From: Escherichia coli
GTDB taxonomy: Bacteria; Pseudomonadota; Gammaproteobacteria; Enterobacterales; Enterobacteriaceae
Assembly: GCF_002854065.1 (NCBI RefSeq)
Contig: NZ_CP024147.1
Reading direction: 5' to 3' (one strand)
Length of the DNA stretch: 64,000 nt
In this document: piece by piece, positions 11,781-61,859 of the stretch
Position numbering within the stretch: the first letter of the stretch is position 1
How the letters are laid out: each line of letters starts with the position of its first letter
Notes under the pieces: generated by a model
Seen by the model: the letters and a program-made list of their open reading frames with translations, nothing else
What the model was told of the DNA's origin: nothing
The model's database searches: none
Program-made: the position numbers and the translations under genes

Positions 11781-13037
11781 ATGCTCCATCCGCGAGCCAG
11801 AACCATGTTGTTATTATCGCTCCCCGCCGTGGCAATTGGGATTGCGTCCAGTCTTATTCTGATTGTGGTGATGAAAATCGCCTCGGTATTACAGAATTTG
11901 CTCTGGCAACGACTGCCGGGAACTCTGGGGATAGCCCAGGATTCACCTTTCTGGATCATCGGTGTATTAACGCTAACGGGTATTGCGGTGGGGTTGGTTA
12001 TCCGTTTCAGCCAGGGTCATGCCGGACCAGACCCCGCCTGTGAACCGCTGATCGGCGCACCGGTTCCGCCCTTTGCGCTACCTGGACTTATCGTAGCATT
12101 AATTCTCGGTCTTGCTGGCGGCGTCAGCCTGGGGCCGGAACATCCGATCATGACCGTCAATATCGCCCTTGCGGTTGCCATTGGCGCTCGTCTGTTACCG
12201 CGCGTCAACCGAATGGAGTGGACTATTTTAGCCTCTGCCGGAACCATCGGCGCGCTGTTTGGTACACCTGTTGCGGCGGCGTTGATATTTTCGCAAACCT
12301 TAAATGGCAGTAGTGAAGTTCCGCTATGGGATCGTCTTTTTGCGCCGTTAATGGCGGCAGCAGCTGGTGCACTTACTACCGGATTATTTTTCCATCCCCA
12401 TTTTTCACTGCCCATTGCGCATTACGGACAGATGGAAATGACCGATATTCTCAGCGGTGCAATTGTCGCGGCGATTGCCATCGCAGCAGGGATGGTCGCC
12501 GTATGGTGCTTACCACGGTTGCACGCGATGATGCATCAAATGAAAAATCCGGTGCTCGTGCTGGGTATTGGCGGATTTATTCTCGGTATTCTGGGGGTTA
12601 TTGGTGGACCAGTTTCGCTGTTTAAAGGGCTGGATGAGATGCAGCAGATGGTGGCAAATCAGGCTTTCAGCACCAGCGATTACTTTTTGCTGGCGGTAAT
12701 TAAACTTGCCGCCCTGGTCGTTGCTGCCGCCAGTGGCTTTCGCGGTGGACGAATCTTCCCGGCAGTGTTTGTCGCCGTGGCATTAGGGTTGATGCTGCAT
12801 GAGCACGTTCCCGCCGTACCAGCGGCAATAACCGTTTCCTGCGCTATTCTCGGCATCGTGCTGGTGGTAACACGCGATGGCTGGTTAAGTCTTTTTATGG
12901 CGGCAGTCGTTGTACCCAATACCACATTGCTACCGCTGCTCTGTATCGTCATGCTTCCGGCATGGCTGTTATTAGCAGGTAAGCCGATGATGATGGTCAA
13001 TCGTCCGAAGCAACAGCCACCCCACGATAACGTTTAG
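11781..13037 (+). CDS. yfeO: Putative ion channel/transporter YfeO
   Basis: 418-aa polytopic membrane protein, position matches K-12 yfeO. Confidence 0.85.
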
Positions 13038-13151
13038 CAAAAAATGCTCTCCTTTATGATTTAAGAGTTATGGCGATGATACGGGGCTTTACCTCCCCGT
13101 AATATTGCGTTAACAGGCCGCTGACGGCTTCGATCGTGAAGGAGAATAACA

Positions 13152-13478
13152 ATGTTCAGGTCACTGTTTCTGGCGGCCGCCCTGATGGCATTTACCCCGC
13201 TTGCAGCAAACGCAGGCGAAATCACCCTACTGCCATCAATCAAATTACAAATTGGCGATCGCGATCATTACGGTAATTACTGGGACGGTGGTCACTGGCG
13301 CGACCGTGACTACTGGCATCGCAATTATGAATGGCGTAAAAACCGCTGGTGGCGTCATGATAATGGCTACCACCGTGGCTGGGATAAGCGTAAAGCGTAT
13401 GAGCGTGGCTATCGTGAAGGCTGGCGCGATCGTGACGATCATCGCGGAAAAGGCCGCGGACATGGACACCGCCATTAA
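13152..13478 (+). CDS. ypeC: Secreted repeat protein YpeC (DUF2502)
   Basis: 108 aa with signal peptide and W/R/D/H-rich repeats ([61 protein letters not shown]). Confidence 0.85.
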
Positions 13479-13500
13479 ACACATTCGCCAATGGAGCACA

Positions 13501-13595
<95 letters not shown>

Positions 13596-13618
13596 TGCCA
13601 GATGCGACGCTCATTCAA

Positions 13619-14866
<1,248 letters not shown>

Positions 14867-14869
14867 CTA

Positions 14870-14891
14870 AAACATAGCCTTTGCTATGTTT
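14870..14891. promoter_or_regulatory. MntR operator (perfect inverted repeat) in mntH leader
   Basis: AAACATAGC-CTTT-GCTATGTTT palindrome 13 bp upstream of the mntH start codon. Confidence 0.65.
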
Positions 14892-14906
14892 CATGCTATT
14901 CCAAAC

Positions 14907-14925
14907 GAGAATGATTATCAAATTC
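14907..14925. promoter_or_regulatory. Candidate Fur box upstream of mntH
   Basis: GAGAATGATTATCAAATTC, about 14/19 match to the Fur consensus GATAATGATAATCATTATC by eye. Confidence 0.45.
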
Positions 14926-15192
14926 ATTTAAATGGGTTGTGGTGATTTCTCTGATAGACCAGGATTATGACTACGAAAAGATTGATGACTTGAATGTTAT
15001 GGTTATGTTTAATGTTAGCACATTTACATAACTTTCAGCTTCCATACACAACATAGCAGAAATGTATGACAGCTCACTATTTTTGAAGCTTGTCACAGGA
15101 CGTCATTATAGTGTGTGTCAGATCTCGTTTTCCTTAACCATGTTACATAGAATGTGCACGGAAATTTAACCTGCCTCATATTTGGAGCAAAT

Positions 15193-16395
15193 ATGGACCG
15201 CGTCCTTCATTTTGTACTGGCACTTGCCGTTGTTGCGATTCTCGCACTGCTGGTAAGCAGCGACCGCAAAAAAATTCGTATCCGTTATGTTATTCAACTG
15301 CTTGTTATCGAAGTGTTACTGGCGTGGTTCTTCCTGAACTCCGACGTTGGTTTAGGCTTCGTGAAAGGCTTCTCCGAAATGTTCGAAAAACTGCTCGGAT
15401 TTGCCAACGAAGGGACTAACTTCGTCTTTGGTAGCATGAATGATCAAGGCCTGGCATTCTTCTTCCTGAAAGTGCTGTGCCCAATCGTCTTTATCTCTGC
15501 ACTGATCGGTATTCTCCAGCACATTCGCGTGTTGCCGGTGATTATCCGCGCAATTGGTTTCCTGCTCTCCAAAGTCAACGGCATGGGCAAACTGGAATCC
15601 TTTAACGCCGTCAGCTCCCTGATTCTGGGTCAGTCTGAAAACTTTATTGCCTATAAAGATATCCTCGGCAAAATCTCCCGTAATCGTATGTACACCATGG
15701 CTGCCACGGCAATGTCCACCGTGTCGATGTCCATCGTTGGTGCATACATGACCATGCTGGAACCAAAATACGTCGTTGCAGCGCTGGTACTGAACATGTT
15801 CAGCACCTTTATCGTGCTGTCGCTGATCAACCCTTACCGTGTTGATGCCAGTGAAGAAAACATTCAGATGTCCAACCTGCACGAAGGTCAGAGCTTCTTC
15901 GAAATGCTGGGTGAATACATTCTGGCAGGTTTCAAAGTTGCCATTATCGTTGCCGCGATGCTGATCGGCTTTATCGCCCTGATCGCCGCGCTGAACGCAC
16001 TGTTTGCCACCGTGACTGGCTGGTTTGGCTACAGCATCTCCTTCCAGGGCATCCTGGGCTACATCTTCTATCCGATTGCATGGGTGATGGGTGTTCCTTC
16101 CAGTGAAGCACTGCAAGTGGGCAGTATCATGGCGACCAAACTGGTTTCCAACGAGTTCGTTGCGATGATGGATCTGCAGAAAATTGCCTCTACACTCTCT
16201 CCGCGTGCTGAAGGCATCATCTCTGTGTTCCTGGTTTCCTTCGCTAACTTCTCTTCAATCGGAATTATTGCAGGTGCAGTTAAGGGCCTGAATGAAGAGC
16301 AAGGTAACGTGGTTTCTCGCTTCGGTCTGAAACTGGTTTACGGCTCTACCCTGGTGAGTGTGCTGTCTGCGTCAATCGCAGCACTGGTGCTGTAA
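15193..16395 (+). CDS. nupC: Nucleoside:H+ symporter NupC
   Basis: 400 aa from ATG 15193 ([17 protein letters not shown]); ORF track opens at an upstream in-frame Met. Confidence 0.9.
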
Positions 16396-16405
16396 GACCA
16401 TACAT

Positions 16406-16437
16406 AAAAAAGCCGGGGATAATTCCCCGGCTTTTTT
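16406..16437. terminator. Bidirectional rho-independent terminator between nupC and pdeA
   Basis: A-run, AGCCGGGG-ATAATT-CCCCGGCT hairpin, T-run. Confidence 0.8.
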
Positions 16438-16444
16438 ACGCCTG

Positions 16445-18634
16445 TTAATCAGCTAATGGCTGCGGGCGACCAATCAAATACCCTTGCAGATATTGCACCC
16501 CGAGCTTATGCAATAGCGCCTGCTGCTGTTGCGTCTCAACAAACTCCGCAACCACACTCAATGACTTCGCTTTCGCCAGATCGGTAATTGATCTCACAAT
16601 CATCGCATCCAGCGTATTCGTGACGATATCTTTCACAAAGACGCCATCAATTTTGATGATATCAGCCTGCAAACGCTTTAACCGTTCGTAGTTGGCATAT
16701 CCGGTGCCAAAGTCATCAATCGCAATCCGGAAACCAAACTTATGCAGCTGCTCGATGTTGTACATGCTGCTTTCTGCGTTCGAAAACGCCTGCTCCTCGG
16801 TGATCTCAAGAATGACCGCCTGCGGGGAGATGTGATAACGCTTAAATAGACGAATAATCCGCCCGGCAATATTCTTTTGCAGCAGCGTGAGCGGCATTAA
16901 ATTAACTGAAAAGCGCGGGCCTTTTTTGTCGCAAGGGTGTGTTGCCAGCCACTTCAACAAGGATTCCAGCACTTGCAAATCAAAACGCGCGCTAAGGTTA
17001 AACTGAGCAATAAGGGGCAGAAACTTATCCGGGGTCATAATGCCGCCGTCATATTTCAGTCGCGCGAGGATCTCATCATAACCTTCACCCTCTTTGTTGC
17101 GAATTGGCTGGGCGTAGAGCAGCAAATCCCCCTGATCTAACGCCGTGCGAATGGTATTCAGCAATAGCACTTGTTTAGTGGTCTGCCCGGAAACCATCTC
17201 CTCTCGGCTATCCAGCGCCAGCACATGATGATGTGCGCAGGATTGCTCCGCCAGCCAGCTTAACTGCCCCAACAAGGGTTGCAGGGTTTCCTGATTTCCA
17301 TCAAAACGCCCCCAGGCAGCACCATAGCCCATATCCAGCCCGGTATTGTTCCAGTGAATTTGCCGACTATTCAGGATGTTAACCATATGCTGGAGTCGCC
17401 CTTCCGTTTCCGGCCCGCTCAGCACTAACAGCAGTTCACTACCCGGCAATTGATATAACTTTTCGTTTTCCTGCATCAACGGCAGCAGCGTACGGTAGAT
17501 TGAGCGGATACAGTGAACGCGCATCATTAAGCCGTAATGACGACTCATAAACTCAAGATTATCAATGCGCAGGCAGCAAAAACTCTTGCCCGCCTCTTGC
17601 TCCGGCGCTTGTTCCAACGCACGAAAATTGGGTAGGAGCGTTAACGGATCGGTCAGCGCCTGCAAATGCCAGCGGCGATTAAGCCATTCACTGCGATGAT
17701 AAATGCGCACCATATAGAGCAGGCAAACGCTAAAGGAAATCAGCACCGCGAGAATAAATGCCAGCGAATATTCGGTTTCCACCCCTTGCAAAAAGTTCTG
17801 GTTGTAATTCAGCAGGCAAAGCGTTGAAACAGCCCAAGTGAGATTTAAAAACGGATAGCGAAGCTTACCGACCCCGAGGGTAAAGATGATGAAGAAAACG
17901 GGTACCAGGTAACCGGCAATAAAGTCGTTTTCATAAGGTGTGCACAACAGAAGTAGCAGCACGCTTAACGCTGCCAGCCAGCTTAAGGTAAATGCGCGTT
18001 TCTCTTTGCCCAACGACGGAGCGATATCCCTGCGCCACAATATCTGCGCAAAGTGGGGACTTACAATCATGCGAGTGAGATAGTAGAAAAGCATGTTGTA
18101 AATCAGAACAGCGGTGAAAAGGCTTAGCAAATCAACGACCGTGAAAATGGCATCCGCATCGCCGAAAAAGGTGGATATCTTTAGCGGGAAATCAAAGAAG
18201 CTCCCCACAAGATACATGCTGCATTTGATGCCGATCGGCGTCACCAAACCAAGCCAGAACAGACGTTGCCAGACATATCGGCTGGTCAATCCATAACGCC
18301 AACGCGTCCCCAGCTGCCAGCGTAATATTGCGCAGGCACACAACACGACAAACGTCTGGCTGCCGAGCATGACCGCAGTCTGTAAAAAAGAGAGATGAAA
18401 GTTCCACAGATTGGTGCAAAACATCCCGCATAAAACGGGAACGACACCGCGCCAGCCAAAGATAAACAAGATTGACAGCATTACGCACAGTGGCATCCAC
18501 GCCAGAAAGATATAACTGGAATGGATAATGGCAAGTGGCGAAATAAAACGGGATAGCTGAATAAGTACCACGGTGAGCGTAAACGCTAGTGTGAATATCT
18601 TGATATTTTTTATCAGGTTATGCTCCACAAACAT
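16445..18634 (-). CDS. pdeA: c-di-GMP phosphodiesterase PdeA (YfeA); membrane MASE-like N-terminus plus degenerate GGDEF and EAL domains
   Basis: 729 aa from ATG 18634 (MFVEHNLIKNIKIF); EAL motifs near C-terminus. Confidence 0.85.
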   Translation of the reverse strand: MFVEHNLIKNIKIFTLAFTLTVVLIQLSRFISPLAIIHSSYIFLAWMPLCVMLSILFIFGWRGVVPVLCGMFCTNLWNFHLSFLQTAVMLGSQTFVVLCACAILRWQLGTRWRYGLTSRYVWQRLFWLGLVTPIGIKCSMYLVGSFFDFPLKISTFFGDADAIFTVVDLLSLFTAVLIYNMLFYYLTRMIVSPHFAQILWRRDIAPSLGKEKRAFTLSWLAALSVLLLLLCTPYENDFIAGYLVPVFFIIFTLGVGKLRYPFLNLTWAVSTLCLLNYNQNFLQGVETEYSLAFILAVLISFSVCLLYMVRIYHRSEWLNRRWHLQALTDPLTLLPNFRALEQAPEQEAGKSFCCLRIDNLEFMSRHYGLMMRVHCIRSIYRTLLPLMQENEKLYQLPGSELLLVLSGPETEGRLQHMVNILNSRQIHWNNTGLDMGYGAAWGRFDGNQETLQPLLGQLSWLAEQSCAHHHVLALDSREEMVSGQTTKQVLLLNTIRTALDQGDLLLYAQPIRNKEGEGYDEILARLKYDGGIMTPDKFLPLIAQFNLSARFDLQVLESLLKWLATHPCDKKGPRFSVNLMPLTLLQKNIAGRIIRLFKRYHISPQAVILEITEEQAFSNAESSMYNIEQLHKFGFRIAIDDFGTGYANYERLKRLQADIIKIDGVFVKDIVTNTLDAMIVRSITDLAKAKSLSVVAEFVETQQQQALLHKLGVQYLQGYLIGRPQPLAD

Positions 18635-18841
18635 GAGTACACTACTCTCACTGATCGGGGTTTTCAGGCACACAAATAATAAGTTTATTCGCATCGCGAA
18701 GCAAACAGGGGCCAGCCTGTTGCCGATTTTTCATCCAATGATGCTTTCACCAGGCGGCGCTAACCCGGACGTAGACTGTATTACAAAAGCGGCAAAAAGC
18801 AGAGACAAAAAACCCCCGCTTTGCAGCGAGGGTTGGAAATT

Positions 18842-18917
<76 letters not shown>

Positions 18918-18956
18918 ACGATGCGTTTACGTACCAAATTTGCTGGGTGCAAAATT

Positions 18957-19032
<76 letters not shown>

Positions 19033-19267
19033 GTCACGTAAAGCTTGTCGAGTTGACGGGCGGCATCATATGAATTCCGCCCGAATGTGTCAACGGCAAA
19101 TTGCAGCGTGTAGTTTCAATCGCTGAAAAATCAGGCAAATGAACAATTTTGGAAAACCGCTCGCATTCAGTAGTTATTCATGTCACGGTTTCCTGTAAAG
19201 TGGTGTTATAAAATGAACTACTAATAGACCCACATACATTCAGGGAATTGTTATGTTCAAGGAGAGG

Positions 19268-19612
19268 ATGACGCCAGATGAACTTGCCAGACTGACCGGC
19301 TATAGCCGCCAGACCATTAATAAATGGGTACGCAAGGAAGGCTGGACGACGTCACCAAAACCAGGCGTCCAGGGTGGCAAAGCCCGACTGGTTCACGTCA
19401 ATGAACAGGTTCGTGAATATATTCGTAATGCTGAACGTCCAGAAGGTCAGGGAGAAGCGCCTGCCCTTTCTGGTGATGCGCCGCTTGAAGTATTGCTGGT
19501 GACACTGGTGAAAGAGATGACGCCAGTTGAACAAAAACAGTTTACATCCTTGCTTCTGCGGGAAGGGATTATCGGATTGTTACAACGCTTAGGGATTCGC
19601 GATAGCAAATAA
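19268..19612 (+). CDS. yfeC: YfeC, small HTH DNA-binding protein
   Basis: 114 aa from ATG 19268 (MTPDELARLTGYSRQTINKWVRKEGW); paralogous to adjacent yfeD. Confidence 0.85.
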   Translation: MTPDELARLTGYSRQTINKWVRKEGWTTSPKPGVQGGKARLVHVNEQVREYIRNAERPEGQGEAPALSGDAPLEVLLVTLVKEMTPVEQKQFTSLLLREGIIGLLQRLGIRDSK

Positions 19613-19613
19613 T

Positions 19614-20006
19614 ATGAAAAGATTACGCAATAAAATGACCACCGAAGAACTGGCTGAATGCCTCGGTGTGGCTAAACAAACTGTTAACCGTTGGATCAGA
19701 GAAAAAGGCTGGAAAACGGAAAAATTTCCCGGCGTGAAAGGCGGTCGTGCCAGACTTATTCTGGTCGATACGCAAGTTTGCGAGTTTATTCAGAACACGC
19801 CAGCCTTCCATAACACACCGATGCTTCTGGAAGCCGAAGAACCCCTTGCCGAATACGCACCGGGGATTCGCACTCCTGCTTATCGGCAAATCATAAGCGC
19901 AATAGACAACATGACTCACAGTGAGCAGGAAAAAGTTGCGCAATTTTTGTCACGCGAAGGAATTCGTAATTTCCTTGCTCGTCTCGACATAGATGAATCA
20001 GCTTGA
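19614..20006 (+). CDS. yfeD: YfeD, small HTH DNA-binding protein
   Basis: 130 aa (ELAECLGVAKQTVNRWIREKGW), tandem paralog of yfeC. Confidence 0.85.
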   Translation: MKRLRNKMTTEELAECLGVAKQTVNRWIREKGWKTEKFPGVKGGRARLILVDTQVCEFIQNTPAFHNTPMLLEAEEPLAEYAPGIRTPAYRQIISAIDNMTHSEQEKVAQFLSREGIRNFLARLDIDESA

Positions 20007-21754
20007 CATCCTCCACGCCCTGAATGACGAGGATCCCTGCTACGTTCAGGCTGTCGCCTGAATCATTTCGGTGGGTTCCTGCTTCAACGAGTGGCCTGAC
20101 TGCACCATCTCTCCACAGGCAAGAACGGCGTGCCCCGCCGCTAAAATGTTACGAGCGCCGTTTACATCGGCGTTCGCTGTATATCCACATACCTGGCATC
20201 TGAATTTACTTTGTGACAGGCGATTTTCTTTCGCTGTATGACCACAGCACGCGCAACGCTGGCTTGTGTACGCTGGCGGAACAGCAAGCACCTGACCGCC
20301 TCGCCAGAGCTGCTTGTACTCAAGCTGGCGGCGCATTTCATACCAGCCCTGATCCAGTATCGAACGGTTTAAACCTGATTTTGCCCGGACATTGCGCCCC
20401 GGCTGGCTGACCGTACCCGCTGCTGACTTTGACATGTTGCTGACCTTCAAATCCTCAATGACTATCATTGCGTGGTTTTTGCTGACGGTCGTTGTGACTT
20501 TGTGAAGGTAGTCTCTGCGGATATTTGCGGTACAGGAATGCAGTCGCTGTATTTTGCGTTTCTGCTTCTGCCAGTTATTGCTGAATTTGACCTTGCGGCT
20601 TAACTGTCGCTGAAGTCTCGCCAGCTTCTTCTGGTTTTTCTGAAAACTGTTTACAGGCTCAAAGACTGTGCCATCTGACAGCGTGGCGAGTTTAGCCACG
20701 CCAGCATCCAGTCCGACCATTGATGCTGAAGGGTGAACCGGAGTTGATACTTCACTTTCTGTCTGAATACTGATGTACCACTTACCGCAGGACTGGCTGA
20801 CAGTGACATTTTTCACAACACCCGTGACCTGACGGCTGTTCCGGTAGCGCATCCAGCCAAGTTTCGGCAGAAAAATACGGCTGTTTTCCTGATCGAGCTT
20901 AACGCCCTGCGGGTAGCGGAATGCATCATTCTGTCCCCGCTTTTTGAATCGGGGAAAAGCAGCCCGCTTCCGGAAGAAGTTTTTGTAAGCCCGCTCAAGG
21001 TCTTTCAGTGACTGTTGCAATGGCTGTGAGGGCGAATCTTTAAGCCATTGCGTTTCAGTGGCATTTTTCCACTCAACCAGCCAGGAAGCCATTTTCCCGT
21101 AAGGGATGTATTTATTACCGGCCTCATGATTCTCATTCTGACGTGCCAGAGCACGATTGAAAACGAAACGACATGCGCCTGCGAAGCGCCTCATTTCACG
21201 CTCCTGTTGACCAGCGGGTCTTAACTGGAATTTAAATGCCTGTAGTCGTTTCACAGGCCAAATGATACTTTGGTCTATGAATAAAGAAACCGATATCCGA
21301 CGGGGAAGGCATTGTGTTTTCCTGATGCATGTTCATCTGGTCTTTGTCACCAGATACCGACGTCAGATTTTTGACTATGACGCGACAGAAAAACTACGCA
21401 CTTACTTTTCAAATGTATGTGCTGATTTTGAAGCTGAACTGGTTGAAATGGATGGCGAACCAGATCACGTCCATTTGTTAATTAACTATCCTCCCAAACT
21501 GGCGATATCCAGTCTGGTAAACAGCCTCAAAGGCGTATCGGGTAGGTTACTGCGACGAGATCGACCAGATATTGCAGTCAGGTATTACTACAAAGGCGTT
21601 TTGTGGAGTCCTGGCTATTTTGCCAGTAGCTGCGGAGGTGCGCCAATATCCGTCATCCGCCAATACATTGAACAACAGCAAACACCTGGTCAGGTGGAAA
21701 ACCGCGCCTTATATCCCCGCCCTGAAGGACGGGGTTTTACGGCGCACCGGATAA
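20007..21754 (-). mobile_element. IS200/IS605-family insertion sequence (IS605-type divergent tnpA/tnpB; possibly IS609-like); boundaries approximate
   Basis: Divergent Y1/HUH tnpA and tnpB fill the yfeD-gltX gap; an 18-nt related motif (CGCCCTGAA-T/G-GACG-A/G-GG) occurs in the same orientation at both ends, as expected for IS200/IS605 subterminal hairpins; gltX terminator lies immediately outside. Confidence 0.7.
20046..21254 (-). CDS. tnpB: TnpB (OrfB) RuvC-like RNA-guided endonuclease family protein
   Basis: 402 aa, GTG start; RuvC-I GLDAGV, Ruv[11 protein letters not shown], zinc finger CACCGH...CQVCG, Ruv[14 protein letters not shown] all present. Confidence 0.85.
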
Positions 21755-21804
21755 ATAAAAAACGGCAGGGGTATCTCTCCTGCCGTTTATCTTTTATGCG
21801 CTAA
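21277..21804 (+). CDS. tnpA: IS200/IS605 TnpA (Y1 HUH transposase), C-terminally extended into flanking DNA
   Basis: HVHLVFVTRYRR (HUH motif) and catalytic-Tyr region VIRQYIEQQ; the ORF has no stop inside the element and reads through the gltX terminator to 21804. Confidence 0.7.
   Translation: MNKETDIRRGRHCVFLMHVHLVFVTRYRRQIFDYDATEKLRTYFSNVCADFEAELVEMDGEPDHVHLLINYPPKLAISSLVNSLKGVSGRLLRRDRPDIAVRYYYKGVLWSPGYFASSCGGAPISVIRQYIEQQQTPGQVENRALYPRPEGRGFTAHRINKKRQGYLSCRLSFMR
21755..21787 (-). terminator. gltX rho-independent terminator
   Basis: On minus strand AAACGGCAGG-AGAGATACC-CCTGCCGTTTTTT just downstream of the gltX stop. Confidence 0.7.
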
Positions 21805-23220
21805 TTACTGCTGATTTTCGCGTTCCGCAATAAAAGCCAGCGCTTTGTTGATACGCTCGATACTGCGGGTCTTACCGATTGCGTGAACGGTAACATCCAG
21901 TGCTGGAGACTGCCCCGCACCGGTTACGGCGACACGCAGCGGCATACCAACTTTACCCATACCCACTTCCAGCTCATCCGCCGTCGCCTGAATAGCGTGA
22001 TGAACGTTTTCAGCGGTCCAGTCAGTAATCGCGGCCAGTTTGTCACGAACCACTTCCAGCGGCTGACGCGCTACCGGACGCAGATGTTTTTTCGCCGCAT
22101 CGGCATCGAACTCAGCAAAATCTTCGTAGAAATAACGGCAGCTCTGTGCCATCTCTTTCAGCGTCTTGCAGCGTTCGCCCAGCAGTTTCACCAGATCAGC
22201 CAGCTGCGGGCCGTTACGGGTATCGATATTTTCCTGCTCAATGTGCCACTGTAAGTGAGTAGCAACATACTCCGGCGGCAGCGCGTTAATGTAGTGATGG
22301 TTCAGCCACAGCAGCTTGTCGGTGTTGAACGCACTGGCAGATTTGCTGACGGCATTCAAAGTGAAGTATTTGATCATCTCTTCACGAGTGAAGATTTCCT
22401 GATCGCCGTGGGACCAGCCCAGACGCACCAGATAGTTCAGCAGTGCTTCTGGCAAATAACCGTCATCACGATACTGCATTACGCTGACTGCCCCGTGACG
22501 TTTGGACAGTTTTTTGCCGTCATCGCCGTTGATCATAGAAACGTGCGCGTAAACCGGTACCGGCGCTTTCAGGGCTTTAAGAATATTGATCTGGCGTGGC
22601 GTGTTGTTGATATGGTCTTCGCCACGGATAACGTGGGTGATTTCCATATCCCAGTCATCGACAACCACACAGAAGTTATAGGTTGGGGAACCATCGGTAC
22701 GGCGGATAATAAGATCGTCCAGTTCCTGGTTGCTGAACTCGATCGGACCACGGATCTGATCGTCAAAAACAACAGAACCTTCCTGCGGGTTAGCAAAACG
22801 TACGACACACGGCTCATCATCAGCGTGATGCTCATGACTGTGGCGGCAGCGACCGTCATAACGCGGCTTCTCACCTTTCGCCATTTGCTCTTCGCGCAGC
22901 GCTTCCAGGCGCTCTTTAGAGCAATAGCATTTATAAGCAGTGCCCTCTTCCAGCATCTGATCGATCACCGCGTTGTAGCGATCAAAACGTTTGGTCTGGA
23001 AGTACGGACCTTCATCCCACTCCAGGCTCAGCCAGTTCATGCCATCCATAATGGCTTCGATAGCTTCCGGCGTGGAACGCTCAAGATCGGTGTCTTCAAT
23101 ACGCAGCACGAACTCACCGCCGTGATTACGTGCAAAAAGCCAGGAGTAAAGAGCAGTACGCGCGCCGCCAACGTGCAGATAGCCTGTTGGGCTTGGCGCG
23201 AAGCGAGTTTTGATTTTCAT
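21805..23220 (-). CDS. gltX: Glutamyl-tRNA synthetase
   Basis: 471 aa, [27 protein letters not shown] (HIGH-type motif) and KLSKR (KMSKS motif). Confidence 0.95.
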
Positions 23221-55986: not shown

Positions 55987-57192
55987 TTGAGCAAGACACC
56001 ACTCACAGCAAAGGCCATCGCAGCCGCGCAGCCAAAAGACAAGCCCTATAAACTCACCGATTCACTGACGCCAGGACTGTTTTTGCTGGTGCATCCCAAC
56101 GGCAGCAAATACTGGCGATTCAGGTATTGGTTGAATAAACGAGAGTTTTTGCAGGCCATTGGTGTTTACCCGCTAATCACACTCAAAGAAGCACGCAGAC
56201 GCGCCACAGAGAGCCGATCTCTGATTGCTAATGGAATTAATCCAGTGGAAGAAGCACGCAAGGAAAAAGCCATTGATGCGCTCAACATGGCGGCAGGTTT
56301 TAAGACGGTAGCGGAGGACTGGCTGGCTACCAGGGTCAGCGGGTGGTCAGAGTCCTACACGAAACAGGTTAGATCGGCACTGGAAAAAGATGTTTACCCC
56401 GTGCTGGGGAAGCGGTCAATTGTCGATATAACGGCCCGTGACGTGCTGGAATTGCTTCAGAAGAAAGAGCGTACCGCACCGGAACAAGCCAGGAAGCTAC
56501 GCCAGCGTATCGGGGAGATCTTCAAATTTGCCGTTATCACCGAACTGGTGGCAAGAAATCCGGTTGCAGATCTGAACACAGCACTAAAAGCCCGCCGTCC
56601 GGGCCACAACGCATGGCTGCAAATTAACGAAATTCAGGCGTTCTATGAAGCACTTGAGAGAGCCGGGAGCGTCCAGATTCAGACGGCAATACGTTTGCTC
56701 ATATTGAGCGCTCTAAGGACGGTGGAACTGCGTAAAATGCGCTGGGAATGGGTTAACCTGGAAGACGCGATCATCACCCTACCCGCTGAAGTCATGAAGG
56801 CCCGTCGCCCGCATGTGGTCCCGCTATCACGGCAGGCGGTAGAGCTATTGCAGGACCAGTTTACTCGCACCGGATACAGCGCTTTCGTCTTCCCTGGTCG
56901 ATTCATGGATAAGCCCTTGTCTGCCAGCGCGATACTGAAAGCCCTGGAGCGTATCGGATACAAGTCGATAGCCACAGCACACGGCTGGCGTACAACGTTC
57001 AGCACGACGCTTAACGAGTCCGGCAGGTACTCACCAGACTGGATTGAAATCCAATTGGCCCACGTCCCGAAGGGTGTACGCGGTGTATATAACCAGGCGG
57101 CCTATCTCAAACAGCGCCGTCAAATGCTTCAGGACTACGCCGACGCCATTGATTCAATACTGGCTGGTGAAGGTAATCCGCTGGAACCGTGA
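55987..57192 (+). CDS. intZ: P4-type tyrosine integrase (IntZ-like, CPZ-55-type prophage)
   Basis: 401 aa, apparent TTG start; catalytic R (LRTVELRKMRWEWV), HxxR (HGWRTTFST) and Tyr (GVYNQAAY) regions. Confidence 0.85.
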   Translation: MSKTPLTAKAIAAAQPKDKPYKLTDSLTPGLFLLVHPNGSKYWRFRYWLNKREFLQAIGVYPLITLKEARRRATESRSLIANGINPVEEARKEKAIDALNMAAGFKTVAEDWLATRVSGWSESYTKQVRSALEKDVYPVLGKRSIVDITARDVLELLQKKERTAPEQARKLRQRIGEIFKFAVITELVARNPVADLNTALKARRPGHNAWLQINEIQAFYEALERAGSVQIQTAIRLLILSALRTVELRKMRWEWVNLEDAIITLPAEVMKARRPHVVPLSRQAVELLQDQFTRTGYSAFVFPGRFMDKPLSASAILKALERIGYKSIATAHGWRTTFSTTLNESGRYSPDWIEIQLAHVPKGVRGVYNQAAYLKQRRQMLQDYADAIDSILAGEGNPLEP

Positions 57193-57198
57193 ACTATA

Positions 57199-57224
57199 AG
57201 GCCGGATTCGTCCGGCTTTTCTTT
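57199..57224 (+). terminator. Terminator after integrase
   Basis: GGCCGGA-TTCG-TCCGGC hairpin followed by TTTTCTTT. Confidence 0.7.
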
Positions 57225-57231
57225 CGCTAAT

Positions 57232-57259
57232 TATTCCACTATTCCAATTAAGTGGAATA
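57232..57259. promoter_or_regulatory. Inverted repeat (candidate operator) between int and the 255-aa gene
   Basis: TATTCCACT-ATTCCAATTA-AGTGGAATA, perfect 9-bp arms. Confidence 0.4.
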
Positions 57260-57418
57260 AATTATTCAATATCAAAAACTTACATCAATATTGCAACAAT
57301 AAAAACGGTGGCTTATGATCAGATCATGATTTTCGGTATGTGAACAGCAAAAACAAGAAGCCCGGAAAGGCGGCAACCAATCCGGGCGATATGGGAAAAG
57401 AGATTAGGAGGTTTCCCC

Positions 57419-58186
57419 ATGCGTAATAGTTTAGCAGTTCGCTTTAGCTTGCAGCAAGGCGAAGAATTATCACAGGAATATCAATTCATCAAATACGAAG
57501 AAGCGCCGGAACAGGTGCAAATAGCTTTTGATGATCAGCACTACGGCAACACTATCCGCTACGACGGTAAAAAATGGTTTCTCAATCCGGTAACAAATGC
57601 CATTCACGTATGTCAAATCATTACGCCAGTAAATAACAGCGCGGATAACGATTCGGCTATTGACGCTGAACTGGTGACAGAACCACTACCGCCACCGCCG
57701 CCAGTACAAGAAAGCGATGTAAAACCCGACGCCATCGATCTGACAGCAGAAGCCAGAGAGCGCAAACAACCGAAGCCGGAACAACCGCAAGCCAAGGATA
57801 ACAAACAGTGGCACGGTAACACGGCGTATCTGAATACGTTTGCTTGTCATCTTCATGAAGTGCTACCACAGGCCATCTATAGCACATGGTGCGACAAACA
57901 AACGGCGGCACACTTCCACCTGCTTTACGCGCTTTGCTACCTGGCAAGCTACGAAAACAAAGATGAAGGTATCGAGCTTGGCGAGGTGTTATATGGTGCT
58001 GAAAAGATCACAAAGGGCGGCGTAGTACCTGGTTTCCATATGGCCCGATCAACGTTCGATATCAAGATTAACGAGCTTGAACAGTGGGGATTAATCAAGG
58101 TAACACGAGGTAAGAAACGTAAGGACGGGCAAGGCAACTTGCCGAACAGTATCAAACTGAACTTTAAGCCGTACAGTTTAAAATAA
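57419..58186 (+). CDS. Prophage hypothetical protein with Pro-rich linker and possible C-terminal winged-helix DNA-binding domain
   Basis: 255 aa; AGGAGG SD 8 nt upstream; N-terminal domain, LPPPPPVQ...PKPEQPQ linker, C-terminal STFDIKINELEQWGLIKVTRGKKRK. Confidence 0.6.
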   Translation: MRNSLAVRFSLQQGEELSQEYQFIKYEEAPEQVQIAFDDQHYGNTIRYDGKKWFLNPVTNAIHVCQIITPVNNSADNDSAIDAELVTEPLPPPPPVQESDVKPDAIDLTAEARERKQPKPEQPQAKDNKQWHGNTAYLNTFACHLHEVLPQAIYSTWCDKQTAAHFHLLYALCYLASYENKDEGIELGEVLYGAEKITKGGVVPGFHMARSTFDIKINELEQWGLIKVTRGKKRKDGQGNLPNSIKLNFKPYSLK

Positions 58187-58194
58187 TCACACTA

Positions 58195-58220
58195 GGCGGG
58201 CAATGTTCCCGCCTTTTCTT
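58195..58220 (+). terminator. Terminator after the 255-aa gene
   Basis: GGCGGG-CAATGTT-CCCGCC followed by TTTTCTTT. Confidence 0.7.
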
Positions 58221-58243
58221 TGCCTCAATCCTATAAAATTCAC

Positions 58244-58282
58244 ATCCCGAAAATCGGTATCTGGGTATCCCGAAAATCGGTA
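58244..58282. repeat. Two tandem 16-bp direct repeats, each internally palindromic
   Basis: ATCCCGAAAATCGGTA at 58244-58259 and 58267-58282 (core CCGA-AAA-TCGG), 23-bp spacing. Confidence 0.7.
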
Positions 58283-58289
58283 AGTAATA

Positions 58290-59400
58290 ATAAGTATTAT
58301 CCTTAAAGGTAAAAACCATATAAGTAAGATCTATCTCTTCAAGAATGTATATATTCACTACGTTCATATATACATGAGAAGTTTCCCTTTCATGCAGTCA
58401 AAACTACATTCATCAGCATCGCTTTCTGCGCTCTCCTTCCCAGCAAGCTGGAAAGGCCCATTCACTCACGCACAACCTGCAAACCAGACCAACATACCAT
58501 CATGGCGATTCGTTCATGGGTAGCGCGGGTATATCTCAAAGGGTGATTTCTTCTTGGTGGACCTTCGGAAGACTTCGAGCAATCGCCAGCTCAAAAGACG
58601 GTCTGGCAGTGATGGTTATCATCGACAGCATTGAGCGCTACCGCGCCAACTTACAGCAGCAGGATAACTACCGAAGGAAAACCCACGCCGAAAGGGATTG
58701 ACTCACTGCAAAGCCAATGGGTTTTATCAGCGTATACAGACCAGACAGGAAACAGCAGCAAAGCAGCGTATAGCCAGGTGCAGACAGTACCATCACACAA
58801 CGCACAGCAGGCTGAGGTGAACACTCAAACAGGTTTATCCCCGCAGCCGACCAACGCAAACCATCCTGACCGTGCCAAATTCGAACGGAATGGTGCCTGT
58901 AACGCGATGAACACATATAACCGCTTACTTGCTTACCTGAAAACTTCACGTCGCCACAGAGCGATTTAGACGCATTATAATTGATGCGATTTCATTAAAT
59001 TTTCACCAGACACCGGAACAACGCCGATTAATCCAGGAATGGATTCATCGACATGCGCCGCTTTCCCCGCAGAACAGTCTCGCCTGAATAGTCTCACCAA
59101 CCAGATTTCAGATTGTCCAATCAGGCACGTCTCATTAAACGACAGAATGCGGCCTACAACGCCATCGCTGCCGATCTCGTTTGAGCAAGGTGCTGAGACT
59201 GAATGACGGACGCCCACTCCTCAGAGCTGAGGAATCGCCACACAGAACGCTGAGATCTGATATTACCGCCGCACCATTCCACGCCAGACGAATCAATCTA
59301 ATCACACCTGAGCAAATGCATTGCCAAAAATTAAGGCCGTCAGAATGCGTTATATTGCGTTTAAACGGCATCTAATTTTAATTAGTTTTGATGTGGTGAT
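58290..59400. other. ORF-poor prophage segment with only short overlapping ORFs; possible gene remnants or noncoding RNA
   Basis: No ORF over 112 aa on either strand across about 1.1 kb; the largest is S/T/Q-rich and of low complexity; contains an AT-rich 10-bp inverted repeat ATGTATATAT/ATATATACAT (58345-58375). Confidence 0.4.
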
Positions 59401-59668
59401 TGCAGGCAAAAAAAATCCCGCCGGAGAGAGCGGGGAAGTGAAATCAATCGTTGTAGTTATAGATCACATTTTGAGTAAGGGTTACCAGCCCTTGAGTAAT
59501 ATTATCCCTGTATTACGTGAGATGCGCAATTATTTTTTGCTAATTAAAAGTTTTGTAAACATTACAGAATATCCCCTTTCCCTATATGGTAAAAGATGTG
59601 AAACAGGGACATGAGGAATATAATATTAAGTATCAACAGTAATGTTGGTCTTTAATTTCATTCAGGGC

Positions 59669-59710
59669 GCGGTGAGGGTTTTCCCATATTTTTCCTCACC
59701 GCTACTTTTT
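59669..59710 (+). promoter_or_regulatory. Hairpin plus T-run directly upstream of the alpA-like gene ribosome-binding site
   Basis: GCGGTGAGG-16 nt loop-CCTCACCGC followed by TACTTTTT and then GAGGTGAGAACATG. Confidence 0.45.
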
Positions 59711-59721
59711 GAGGTGAGAAC

Positions 59722-59913
59722 ATGAATGATAGCGAATTAATGACGGTGAGCGAGGTAGCCGCTTTATTCGGCGTTACCCGACGCACTATATTCCGCTGGC
59801 TGAACAAGATTAAAGGTTGGCCCGTTCCGGTTACTCCGGTCGGTGCACGAATTAAGTTTATCCGATCTGAGATTTTGGAATTCTATAAAAACAAAGGCGC
59901 TCGCCACCAATGA
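59722..59913 (+). CDS. AlpA/Xis-family small HTH DNA-binding protein (prophage regulator or excisionase-like)
   Basis: 63 aa, LMTVSEVAALFGVTRRTIFRWL HTH; SD GAGGTGAG. Confidence 0.7.
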   Translation: MNDSELMTVSEVAALFGVTRRTIFRWLNKIKGWPVPVTPVGARIKFIRSEILEFYKNKGARHQ

Positions 59914-59989
59914 AAACAGCTACTGAGATTATCAAATAACCTATTGATTTAATAAGCTAGCTACCGCAATTTCTGAAGGAATAGGCAGC

Positions 59990-60316
59990 ATGAAAATCAA
60001 AGCAAACACAATTAAAGAAATAACATCAATCAAAGTAAAAGGAGCAGATGCCATGCATTCATTAGACAGTTATTTTCAGCGCACGACAGCCCCTAAATCA
60101 GCCGCCCAGGAACGCCGTGAGGAATTCCAGGAAAAAGTGATGCGTTCTGCTGATTATATTGCGGACAAGTTCGTGGAAACGGTTCGGCCACTTGTTGATG
60201 AAGTAGCTGATAAACTTCAGTCTGAAATGCCGGAAGACATGGAAGGCACTGCAAAGGCGCGACTCCTTTTTGAATTAAGTCGTCGTTTCGGCGTGTCAAT
60301 AAGCACTTTTAAATAA
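59990..60316 (+). CDS. Hypothetical prophage protein
   Basis: 108-aa ORF, AAGGA SD, co-directional tight spacing with neighbours. Confidence 0.5.
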   Translation: MKIKANTIKEITSIKVKGADAMHSLDSYFQRTTAPKSAAQERREEFQEKVMRSADYIADKFVETVRPLVDEVADKLQSEMPEDMEGTAKARLLFELSRRFGVSISTFK

Positions 60317-60333
60317 TCGGAGGAGAAAAGACA

Positions 60334-60876
60334 ATGGACGCATTTGATGTACTGACAAACAAAGGCGATGAACTGGTAGCACAGCGTGATAAAACCGCCA
60401 ACGAAGGGGAACGCGCACTGTTAAATAAGCAGATTAAAGCGATCCGTATGGCCCAGTTTAAATTAATCAGCAATGAAGTTATCGAAATAATTAAACCGCA
60501 GATCCCACAAATCGTTGCTGACGCTATTAAAGCCGCCGGACTGGAGAAACGCATTGCCGGGCTGAAAACGAACGCAGAGAAAATGGAGATGCACAAACAG
60601 AGCGGTGCTCCGACTCCGGATGAGTACTTCTCACCGGATGCTGAGTTTATGGCGCAGGTTGAGGAACGTCTGGGTAGCTGTCTCACCGAGGAACAGCGTC
60701 GCTATTTTGATGGAGTGGATAGTTCGGCAGGTATTGACCTGAACTCGTGTTTCGGTCGTGAAATTGAGCATTTTGATGCCGCCCCGTCTATGCCGGAGCC
60801 AGAACCAGAAATGGCCGCCGATCCTGAAGCTGAGCAACGGAAACGCGTATTCAATGCGATAGGGATTCGGTACTGA
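60334..60876 (+). CDS. Hypothetical prophage protein (acidic C-terminus)
   Basis: 180-aa ORF with strong GGAGG SD 8 nt upstream. Confidence 0.6.
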   Translation: MDAFDVLTNKGDELVAQRDKTANEGERALLNKQIKAIRMAQFKLISNEVIEIIKPQIPQIVADAIKAAGLEKRIAGLKTNAEKMEMHKQSGAPTPDEYFSPDAEFMAQVEERLGSCLTEEQRRYFDGVDSSAGIDLNSCFGREIEHFDAAPSMPEPEPEMAADPEAEQRKRVFNAIGIRY

Positions 60877-60927
60877 TCGGATAAAAGAAAGCCGGGAATT
60901 ACCCCGGCTGACTTAACAATGTGACCA

Positions 60928-61302
60928 ATGAACAAATCGGACAAGACAAACAGGATAAGCAGTCTCGAAACAATGTTCGGGAACTATATTAGCACAAGTC
61001 CGGAGAAAATCATCATGTTGGCACTACGCATCATGCAGGGCATCGCTAAGACCCTCGCAGAACATGTCTTAGACCTGAAACATTCGCCACTGAGCAAACA
61101 GGCCATGAAGCGCCAAACGCTTCGTCTGTGGGCTGAATATTCGCTTGGAACTATCAATAAAATCATCGACATGAAATCGGGGCCGAGCAACCAGAGCGCG
61201 GAGGAAATGGAGTTCATCAGGCGTTTAATTCTCATTCGCAGAGATATTCATAGCCAGTTACACAGCGTGGGAATCGATATTAATGATGGGACGGGCGATT
61301 AA
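60928..61302 (+). CDS. Hypothetical prophage protein
   Basis: 124-aa ORF; weak SD, start uncertain. Confidence 0.45.
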   Translation: MNKSDKTNRISSLETMFGNYISTSPEKIIMLALRIMQGIAKTLAEHVLDLKHSPLSKQAMKRQTLRLWAEYSLGTINKIIDMKSGPSNQSAEEMEFIRRLILIRRDIHSQLHSVGIDINDGTGD

Positions 61303-61340
61303 TTTTCGGACAAGTACAATGCGCGCGCGAGGAGCTGAAC

Positions 61341-61571
61341 ATGAAGCAAGATATTGCAGACAGGCTGGAGATACTCGAAGGCCAGCGGGCAGAAGCGAAA
61401 CAACTACGTAAGCAGGCCAGAAGAGCGCACAGGAACTACGAAGCAGAATCACTGACCGCTTTCATCAACTTCACAAACCGTTGCATCCAGGAGTGTTACA
61501 GGGAGGATGCAGAAAACTGGCTGGATTCATTGCCAGAACAGACTCTGCATGAACTGAACGGCGACCAGTAA
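61341..61571 (+). CDS. Hypothetical prophage protein
   Basis: 76-aa ORF with GAGGAG SD. Confidence 0.5.
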   Translation: MKQDIADRLEILEGQRAEAKQLRKQARRAHRNYEAESLTAFINFTNRCIQECYREDAENWLDSLPEQTLHELNGDQ

Positions 61572-61859
61572 ATAAATCCAGTACGTTTCCCGCAGTGCGC
61601 ATAACGTACATTATGTGAAAAACGATATGGATGTATATCAGTATTGATTTCATTGAGAAAACTGGGTTTTCAGTGGCACAGACAAAGAAGCATAGCTGAT
61701 ACAGCTTTATAAGCCATTGATTCTATTAAGTGATGTTTTTTGTGATTGGTTGAAGCAAACCAAAACACGATGCCACTGAAGCGTTAATAAACTGTTTCAA
61801 TGTGAAATTATTAGAGTAAAGAACAATTTGGAGGGTCCGCAAACGCGGATAACAATATC

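What the first reader, a model, noticed from the sequence alone, without database searches (positions are those of the whole stretch)
16406..16437. Unoccupied IS186-type target in the nupC terminator
As I recall K-12, an IS186 copy sits between nupC and pdeA; here the genes are separated only by their shared terminator. Its stem GGGG-ATAATT-CCCC matches the G4-N6-C4 type of site IS186 favours. This looks like the empty form of a known insertion hotspot and marks the strain as distinct from MG1655.
Basis: partly seen in the sequence, partly recalled or inferred. Interest (0 to 1): 0.3.

Follow-up and report, generated by a model that had tools for sequence, protein, structure and literature searches.

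The report
Empty IS186 site in nupC/pdeA terminator
The 32-base hairpin between the nupC and pdeA genes is an ordinary two-way transcription terminator that is also a textbook landing site for the mobile element IS186: it is empty here, filled in E. coli K-12 and in about 17% of complete E. coli genomes, and all of this fits what is already known about IS186.

Summary
The observation and the interpretation both hold, but the feature is already known.

**What is there.** Window 16406-16437 is a perfect hairpin, AAAAAAGCCGGGGA-TAAT-TCCCCGGCTTTTTT. It lies in the 49-bp gap between the convergent genes nupC and pdeA and looks like a bidirectional intrinsic terminator. Its stem contains GGGG-ATAATT-CCCC (16415-16428). 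This is the only match in the 64 kb window to the published IS186 target, GGGG(N6/N7)CCCC.

**Comparison with MG1655.** The alignment places IS186C (1337 bp between the repeats) exactly at the hairpin apex. It is flanked by a direct repeat of up to 12 bp, GGGATAATTCCC, which is window 16416-16427.

**Across 5,426 complete E. coli genomes.**
- About 4,460 have the empty site.
- 477 carry IS186 here in the K-12 orientation, and 465 carry it inverted.
- Five sequenced examples show all four combinations of loop allele (ATAATT or ATCATT) and orientation. All share the same junction, so there were at least four independent insertions. It is a real hotspot.

**Why it is empty here.** The window has no IS186. 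The chromosome of its nearest complete relative (strain CUWW06) has none either, so the ancestral state is the simplest explanation.

**Verdict.** Being "distinct from MG1655" is true but trivial, because 82% of genomes share the empty state. Low interest.

The parts
15193..16395 (+). nupC coding sequence (nucleoside:H+ symporter); stop codon TAA at 16393-16395
   Evidence: ORF list. RefSeq annotation of the near-identical strain CUWW06 at the same coordinates. 98.7% identical to MG1655 nupC and its upstream region.
16396..16444 (.). 49-bp intergenic gap between the convergent genes nupC and pdeA
16406..16437 (.). Bidirectional intrinsic-terminator hairpin: A6 + GCCGGGGA + TAAT + TCCCCGGC + T6
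   Evidence: Fold of the + strand: -25.1 kcal/mol, z = -5.8, 0 of 200 shuffles as stable. Both strands fold into the same stem followed by a U-run. The simple terminator scan picks up the inner stem on the + strand.
16415..16428 (.). GGGG-ATAATT-CCCC, a canonical IS186 target motif (N6 class); unoccupied here
   Evidence: Only match in the 64 kb window. The motif is as defined by Lee et al. 2016, PMC5009759.
16416..16427 (.). GGGATAATTCCC, the segment found on both sides of IS186 in genomes where the site is occupied (maximal target-site duplication, with the 6-bp core ATAATT at 16419-16424)
   Evidence: The two window/MG1655 alignment blocks overlap by exactly these 12 bases. The same geometry is seen in five occupied genomes and at the other two K-12 IS186 copies.
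16445..18634 (-). pdeA (yfeA) coding sequence, a MASE1/GGDEF-EAL c-di-GMP phosphodiesterase-type protein; its stop-codon end is at 16445
   Evidence: RefSeq annotation of CUWW06 at the same coordinates. The mechanical ORF is 16445-18694.

Best explanation
The element is the shared Rho-independent terminator of two convergent genes, nupC and pdeA. It has an 8-bp G+C-rich stem (GCCGGGGA/TCCCCGGC) and a TAAT loop. A6 lies on one side and T6 on the other, so each transcript ends in a hairpin followed by a U-run.

The stem happens to spell GGGG-N6-CCCC. This is the palindromic pattern at which IS186, an IS4-family element with a DDE transposase, inserts. The hairpin apex is therefore a natural IS186 landing site.

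In this window the site is in its ancestral, never-occupied state. In K-12 and about 17% of complete E. coli genomes IS186 has inserted at exactly this point, in either orientation. Each insertion duplicates the centre of the hairpin and splits the terminator in two.

Shown: the sequence and fold, the insertion point, the duplication, both orientations, recurrence, frequencies, and the absence of IS186 from the window and from the chromosome of the nearest complete genome.

Inferred: that the hairpin terminates transcription in vivo, that the transposase reads the G4/C4 flanks, and that the empty state is ancestral rather than restored by excision.
For: **Hairpin and gene layout.**

**Motif.** It is unique in the window. 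The consensus GGGG(N6/N7)CCCC comes from 59 reconstructed de novo insertions, which occurred in either orientation; the K-12 genome has only 54 such sites (Lee et al. 2016, PMC5009759).

**MG1655.** IS186C lies between nupC and pdeA. Its junctions are ...GCCGGGGATAATTCCC|ATAAGCG...CGCTTAT|GGGATAATTCCCCGG....

**Strain EC052.** It carries an identical 1337-bp IS186, inverted, at the same position on an ATCATT loop allele.

**Population counts.**
- 4460 of 5425 genomes are contiguous across the site.
- 477 genomes have the K-12-orientation junction and 465 the inverted junction (472 and 465 with longer probes).
- IS186 is present in 2204 of 5426 genomes, so about 43% of carriers have a copy here.

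**Independent insertions.** Five sequenced examples cover all four combinations of loop allele and orientation. Both copies of the duplication carry the same allele in each.

**Other K-12 copies.** The two other IS186 copies in K-12 sit in the same kind of extended palindrome, GC-GGGG-N6-CCCC-GC.

**Transposase.** InsL matches the Pfam DDE_Tnp_1 family.

**Why empty here.** The window has no IS186. The CUWW06 chromosome differs from the window at only 10 of the first 63951 bases and shows no IS186 match.
Against: - Nothing in the data contradicts this explanation.
- Termination at this hairpin was not measured. It was only predicted from the fold and the U-runs.
- The motif count in the window (1) is no higher than chance (2.2 expected), so the motif is not evidence of selection for a target.
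- The exact length of the target duplication cannot be fixed from sequence. The target is palindromic and every target supplies GGG/CCC next to the IS ends. The duplication is 12 bp if the IS is taken as 1337 bp, 6 bp on the core definition of Lee et al., and 4 bp with the 1345-bp MG1655 annotation.
- Plasmids of CUWW06, and the rest of the window's own genome, were not examined for IS186.
Confidence: 0.93

Rival explanations
1. The site is empty because an IS186 copy was once here and excised precisely, restoring the hairpin.
For: Precise excision would leave exactly this sequence, so the sequence alone cannot exclude it. The site is occupied in 942 genomes.
Against: 82% of genomes are empty at this site, and 59% have no IS186 at all. 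The window has no IS186, and the nearest complete chromosome has none either. In mutation-accumulation lines only 1 excision was seen among 857 IS events (Lee et al. 2016).
Confidence: 0.03
2. The site is not a hotspot. IS186 entered here once, long ago, and its occupancy in many genomes is inheritance plus recombination. The G4-N6-C4 match is incidental.
For: Most K-12-orientation hits are laboratory K-12 derivatives, which all descend from one event. The flank haplotypes of MG1655 and B20159 are identical, as expected from shared ancestry of the flanks.
Against: Both orientations occur in near-equal numbers (477 and 465). All four combinations of loop allele and orientation exist, and both copies of the duplication carry the same allele. 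That requires at least four insertions at the identical position. MG1655 and B20159 share the flank haplotype yet carry the IS in opposite orientations. The position matches the independently derived consensus.
Confidence: 0.03
3. The hairpin is kept by selection as an IS186 'safe harbour', not merely tolerated. The terminator and the IS target have co-evolved, or insertion brings a benefit, for example by changing nupC or pdeA read-through.
For: All four sites examined (this one plus three in K-12) are extended terminator-like palindromes in gaps next to gene ends. Lee et al. ask whether such sites are selected. Insertion removes the stem-plus-U-run structure from both transcripts.
Against: A G+C-rich terminator stem yields G4...C4 by chance often enough. 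The best-documented hotspots, in fimA and menC, lie in coding sequence. The empty form predominates at 82%. No expression data exist.
Confidence: 0.1

Closest known systems
IS186C (insL3) insertion between nupC and pdeA/yfeA in E. coli K-12 MG1655 (NC_000913.3 2514273-2515617)
   Same: It is the same locus and the same hairpin. The window sequence is what MG1655 would be if the 1337-bp element and one copy of GGGATAATTCCC were removed.
   Different: The window lacks the element. It also has C rather than T at 16431 in the right arm (CCCCGGC versus CCCCGGT). This is a common allele that also occurs at empty sites. The flanks differ from MG1655 by 1.3-1.9%.
IS186 target-site consensus 5'-GGGG(N6/N7)CCCC-3' (Lee et al. 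2016, NAR 44:7109, PMC5009759; an earlier consensus is in SaiSree et al. 2001, J Bacteriol 183:6943, which could not be read here)
   Same: G4 and C4 flank a 6-nt A+T-rich core. Insertions occur in both orientations at one position. The site is non-coding.
   Different: This site could not appear among their de novo events, because it is already occupied in the K-12 founder strain. Its recurrent use is shown here from natural genomes instead.
lon-promoter IS186 hotspot (E. coli B and many selected K-12 mutants)
   Same: It is a single defined G/C-flanked site hit repeatedly and in both orientations (PMC3045373; PMC11251521).
   Different: The lon insertions are recovered because they give a selectable phenotype (loss of Lon). 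No phenotype is known for the nupC/pdeA insertion, which lies between two gene ends.
Bidirectional Rho-independent terminators between convergent genes
   Same: A perfect G+C-rich stem with an A-run on one side and a T-run on the other, 10 nt and 7 nt from the two stop codons.
   Different: Nothing is unusual about it. Function is predicted, not measured.

Membership tests
IS186 target site (GGGG-N6/N7-CCCC) | Run of four or more G on one side and four or more C on the other | tested here: met
   GGGG at 16415-16418 and CCCC at 16425-16428
IS186 target site (GGGG-N6/N7-CCCC) | Spacer of 6 or 7 nt | tested here: met
   The spacer is ATAATT, 6 nt. The definition is from PMC5009759.
IS186 target site (GGGG-N6/N7-CCCC) | Real IS186 copies inserted at this position, flanked by a direct repeat of the core | tested here: met
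   MG1655, EC052, B20159, KK19-02 and O121 201805972 all carry a 1337-bp IS186 flanked by GGG-N6-CCC repeats at this point.
IS186 target site (GGGG-N6/N7-CCCC) | Insertions in either orientation at the same site | tested here: met
   477 genomes in one orientation and 465 in the other
IS186 target site (GGGG-N6/N7-CCCC) | De novo transposition into this empty allele observed experimentally | not testable with these tools
   This needs a transposition assay in a strain with the empty site.
Intrinsic (Rho-independent) bidirectional terminator | Stable G+C-rich stem-loop | tested here: met
   -25.1 kcal/mol, z = -5.8
Intrinsic (Rho-independent) bidirectional terminator | U-run immediately 3' of the stem on both transcripts | tested here: met
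   T6 at 16432-16437 serves the + strand. A6 at 16406-16411 gives T6 on the - strand.
Intrinsic (Rho-independent) bidirectional terminator | Located just downstream of the stop codons of convergent genes | tested here: met
   The nupC stop is at 16395 and the pdeA stop end at 16445.
Intrinsic (Rho-independent) bidirectional terminator | Transcript 3' ends map to the U-runs in vivo | not testable with these tools
   This needs Term-seq or 3' RACE.
IS186 element (IS4 family) | The element itself (terminal inverted repeats ATAAGCGCTAACTTAAGGGTTG and the insL DDE transposase gene) is present in the window | tested here: not met
   Blastn of the 1337-bp element against the whole window gave no hits. 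The feature is a target, not an element.

The most novel reading that the evidence does not exclude
The nupC/pdeA terminator may be one of the most frequently and recurrently used natural IS186 sites in the species: at least 4 independent hits, and occupied in about 43% of IS186-carrying genomes. IS186 may systematically exploit the apexes of G+C-stem terminators between gene ends as low-cost harbours. Each insertion would abolish both terminators. In the K-12 orientation it would place insL directly downstream of an unterminated nupC transcript, which could link transposase expression to nupC transcription.
Probability: 0.15. Interest if true: 0.35.

Novelty: already known. Interest (0 to 1): 0.1.

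Why it matters
The feature matters little beyond bookkeeping. It confirms that the window comes from an E. coli lineage with the ancestral, IS-free nupC-pdeA junction. It also gives a clean natural example of the published IS186 target rule.

The one mildly useful by-product is the population figure. This single terminator is occupied in 942 of 5,426 complete genomes, in both orientations and on two loop alleles. That makes the site a convenient presence/absence/orientation marker for strain typing. It also offers a test case for whether IS insertion into shared terminators changes expression of the flanking genes.

Tried and rejected
1. **Right-arm C/T difference as decay after insertion.** I tested whether the difference at 16431 (GGC here, GGT in MG1655, B20159 and O121) reflects decay of the terminator after insertion. 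This was rejected. The GGT form with an intact, empty hairpin is common in natural genomes, with full-length 100% matches.
2. **Reading the original target-consensus paper.** SaiSree et al. 2001 (PMC95536) is not held. The consensus is cited from Lee et al. 2016 instead, whose supplementary site table is also not held.
3. **Literature linking IS186 to this locus.** Searches for IS186 with nupC or with yfeA found nothing. One search was badly specified and returned papers on the hormone INSL3.
4. **First chimeric-probe attempt.** The aim was to see whether CUWW06 carries IS186. The first probe joined nupC flank to IS186 and was listed with 'spread' rows. It ranked the K-12-orientation genomes first and never showed CUWW06. 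A second probe anchored on the rare island at 59-61.5 kb worked.
5. **Rfam scan of 13000-22000.** Only the two tRNA-Ala genes were found, and nothing at the hairpin.
6. **Fixing the true target-duplication length.** This was not possible from sequence, because every target supplies GGG/CCC next to the IS ends.
7. **Genomes left unexamined.** About 24 genomes are neither contiguous across the site nor carry either junction.

Full report
**Observation.** Window 16406-16437 reads AAAAAAGCCGGGGATAATTCCCCGGCTTTTTT. The nupC reading frame ends at 16395 on the + strand, and the pdeA frame ends at 16445 on the - strand (RefSeq annotation of a near-identical genome). The two convergent genes are therefore 49 bp apart, and the palindrome fills 32 of those bases.

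As RNA, the + strand folds into a 15-bp stem, made of an 8-bp G+C-rich core extended by A-U pairs, with a 4-nt loop. The free energy is -25.1 kcal/mol and the z-score is -5.8 against dinucleotide shuffles. None of 200 shuffles folds as well. The - strand transcript forms the mirror structure, also followed by a U-run. This is the anatomy of a bidirectional intrinsic terminator. An Rfam scan of 13000-22000 found only the two tRNA-Ala genes.

GGGG-ATAATT-CCCC at 16415-16428 is the only GGGG-N(3-6)-CCCC match in the 64 kb window. There is no N7 match. One match is not more than chance (2.2 expected), so the non-random object is the hairpin, not the motif count.

**Comparison with MG1655.** In NC_000913.3 the order is nupC, IS186C (insL3), pdeA. 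Window 12151-16427 aligns to MG1655 up to the base before the IS. Window 16416-20002 aligns from the base after it. The two blocks overlap by 12 bases, GGGATAATTCCC (16416-16427), which in MG1655 stand on both sides of a 1337-bp element:

...GCCGGGGATAATTCCC|ATAAGCGCTAACTTAAGGGTTG...CAACCCTTAAGTTAGCGCTTAT|GGGATAATTCCCCGG...

The element has 22-bp perfect terminal inverted repeats, and its ORF matches the DDE_Tnp_1 transposase family.

The length of the duplication depends on where the IS ends are drawn. The target is palindromic, and every target supplies GGG/CCC next to the ends. The duplication is 12 bp with a 1337-bp element, 6 bp (ATAATT) on the 'core' definition of Lee et al., and 4 bp with the 1345-bp MG1655 annotation. 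The other two K-12 copies show the same geometry. Both sit in extended palindromes: GGCGGGGATCACTCCCCGCC after dnaJ and GCGGGGAGTAATCCCCGC after hokE.

**Target rule.** Lee et al. 2016 (PMC5009759) reconstructed 59 de novo IS186 insertion sites in mutation-accumulation lines. They found a highly specific pattern, 5'-GGGG(N6/N7)CCCC-3', with insertions in either orientation. K-12 has only 19 N6 and 35 N7 sites, and some of them are hit repeatedly. The site here is a canonical N6 site. Other papers describe the lon-promoter hotspot, also hit in both orientations (PMC3045373; PMC11251521). The original consensus paper (SaiSree et al. 2001) is not held.

**Population data.** A 1051-bp probe across the site matched 5,425 of 5,426 complete E. 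coli genomes. Of these, 4,460 were contiguous across the site. In the rest the match broke at query position 517, which is window 16416.

| State at the nupC/pdeA hairpin | Genomes | Source |
|---|---|---|
| Empty (contiguous) | 4,460 | |
| IS186, K-12 orientation (70-bp probe) | 477 | |
| IS186, inverted orientation (70-bp probe) | 465 | |
| IS186, K-12 orientation (300-bp probe) | 472 | |
| IS186, inverted orientation (300-bp probe) | 465 | |
| Any IS186 in the genome | 2,204 | |

- The K-12-orientation set is dominated by laboratory K-12 derivatives but includes wild isolates.
- The inverted set consists mostly of natural isolates from humans, pigs, poultry, wild birds and water.
- Together that is 942 genomes (17%), or about 43% of the genomes that carry any IS186.

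**Independent insertions.** Five occupied genomes were read across both junctions.

| Strain | Loop allele | Orientation |
|---|---|---|
| MG1655 | ATAATT | + |
| O121 201805972 | ATAATT | + |
| B20159 | ATAATT | - |
| KK19-02 | ATCATT | + |
| EC052 | ATCATT | - |

- In every case the element is 1337 bp, differs from the MG1655 copy by 0-2 bases, and is flanked by the same GGG-N6-CCC repeat.
- In every case both copies of the repeat carry the same loop allele, so the loop polymorphism predates each insertion.
- This requires at least four independent insertions at the identical position.
- MG1655 and B20159 share an identical nupC haplotype yet carry the IS in opposite orientations.
- The site is therefore a real recurrent target and not one inherited event.

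**Why it is empty here.** The window contains no IS186. It differs at only 10 of its first 63,951 bases from the chromosome of strain CUWW06 (wastewater, Thailand). It diverges only in the last 49 bases, where CUWW06 has an IS1. A chimeric probe joined a rare island sequence to 1,137 bp of IS186. It gave a single place in the CUWW06 chromosome, the island, so that chromosome has no IS186. Most genomes are empty at this site, and most lack IS186 altogether. Excision is also rare: 1 of 857 IS events in Lee et al. The simplest reading is an ancestral site that was never occupied.

**Consequence of occupation (inferred).** In MG1655 the 3' ends of both nupC and pdeA lose the stem-plus-U-run and run directly into IS186 sequence. 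Whether this changes expression was not testable here.

**A side hypothesis rejected.** The right arm is CCCCGGC here but CCCCGGT in MG1655, B20159 and O121. This might have been decay after the hairpin was split. It is not, because the GGT form is common with the hairpin intact and empty.

**Comparison with what is known.** The K-12 insertion is annotated, the target rule is published, and the hairpin is an ordinary terminator. No paper in the searchable library links IS186 with nupC or yfeA. The population-level recurrence at this locus may therefore not have been written up, but it is an expected consequence of the known rule.

**Verdict.** The novelty class is 'already known', and interest is low.

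Noticed in passing
window 20003-21750: A ~1.75-kb insertion relative to MG1655 lies between yfeD and gltX. It is an IS200/IS605-family element with an intact 402-aa TnpB/InsQ (OrfB_IS605 + Cas12f1-like TNB + HTH domains; 20046-21254, - strand). It also has a 137-aa Y1 (IS200-like) TnpA frame (21277-21687, + strand), which RefSeq flags as partial in strain CUWW06.
   Followed up: partly
window 55987-63951: An integrase-led island (intZ-type tyrosine recombinase followed by short hypothetical and HTH genes) sits directly after eutB, where I recall (not checked here) K-12 carries the CPZ-55 prophage. The stretch probed (59000-61500) matched over its full length in only seven genomes (one at 100%, six at 99.5%), with shorter or more diverged matches in others.
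   Followed up: partly
window 63952-64000: The window is collinear with the E. coli CUWW06 chromosome (10 SNPs in 63,951 bases) and then diverges completely for the last 49 bases. An IS1B transposase gene is annotated in CUWW06 from about position 63967. The window's genome is therefore a close relative of CUWW06 but not the same strain.
   Followed up: no
window 16421 and 16431: The terminator is polymorphic across E. coli at two positions. The loop is ATAATT or ATCATT (16421). The right arm is GGC or GGT (16431); the GGT form gives a G-U pair in the nupC transcript and an A-C mismatch in the pdeA transcript. Both variants occur at empty and at occupied sites.
   Followed up: yes
L006 (NC_000913.3 15200-16900) and L007 (607800-609600): The other two K-12 IS186 copies also split extended G+C palindromes beside gene ends: GGCGGGGATCACTCCCCGCC after dnaJ and GCGGGGAGTAATCCCCGC after hokE. 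All four sites examined are terminator-like hairpins and not bare G4-N6-C4 motifs.
   Followed up: partly
window 16445-18694: The mechanical ORF for pdeA is 749 aa from an upstream ATG. RefSeq annotates 729 aa (16445-18634), so there is a start-codon ambiguity of 20 codons.
   Followed up: no
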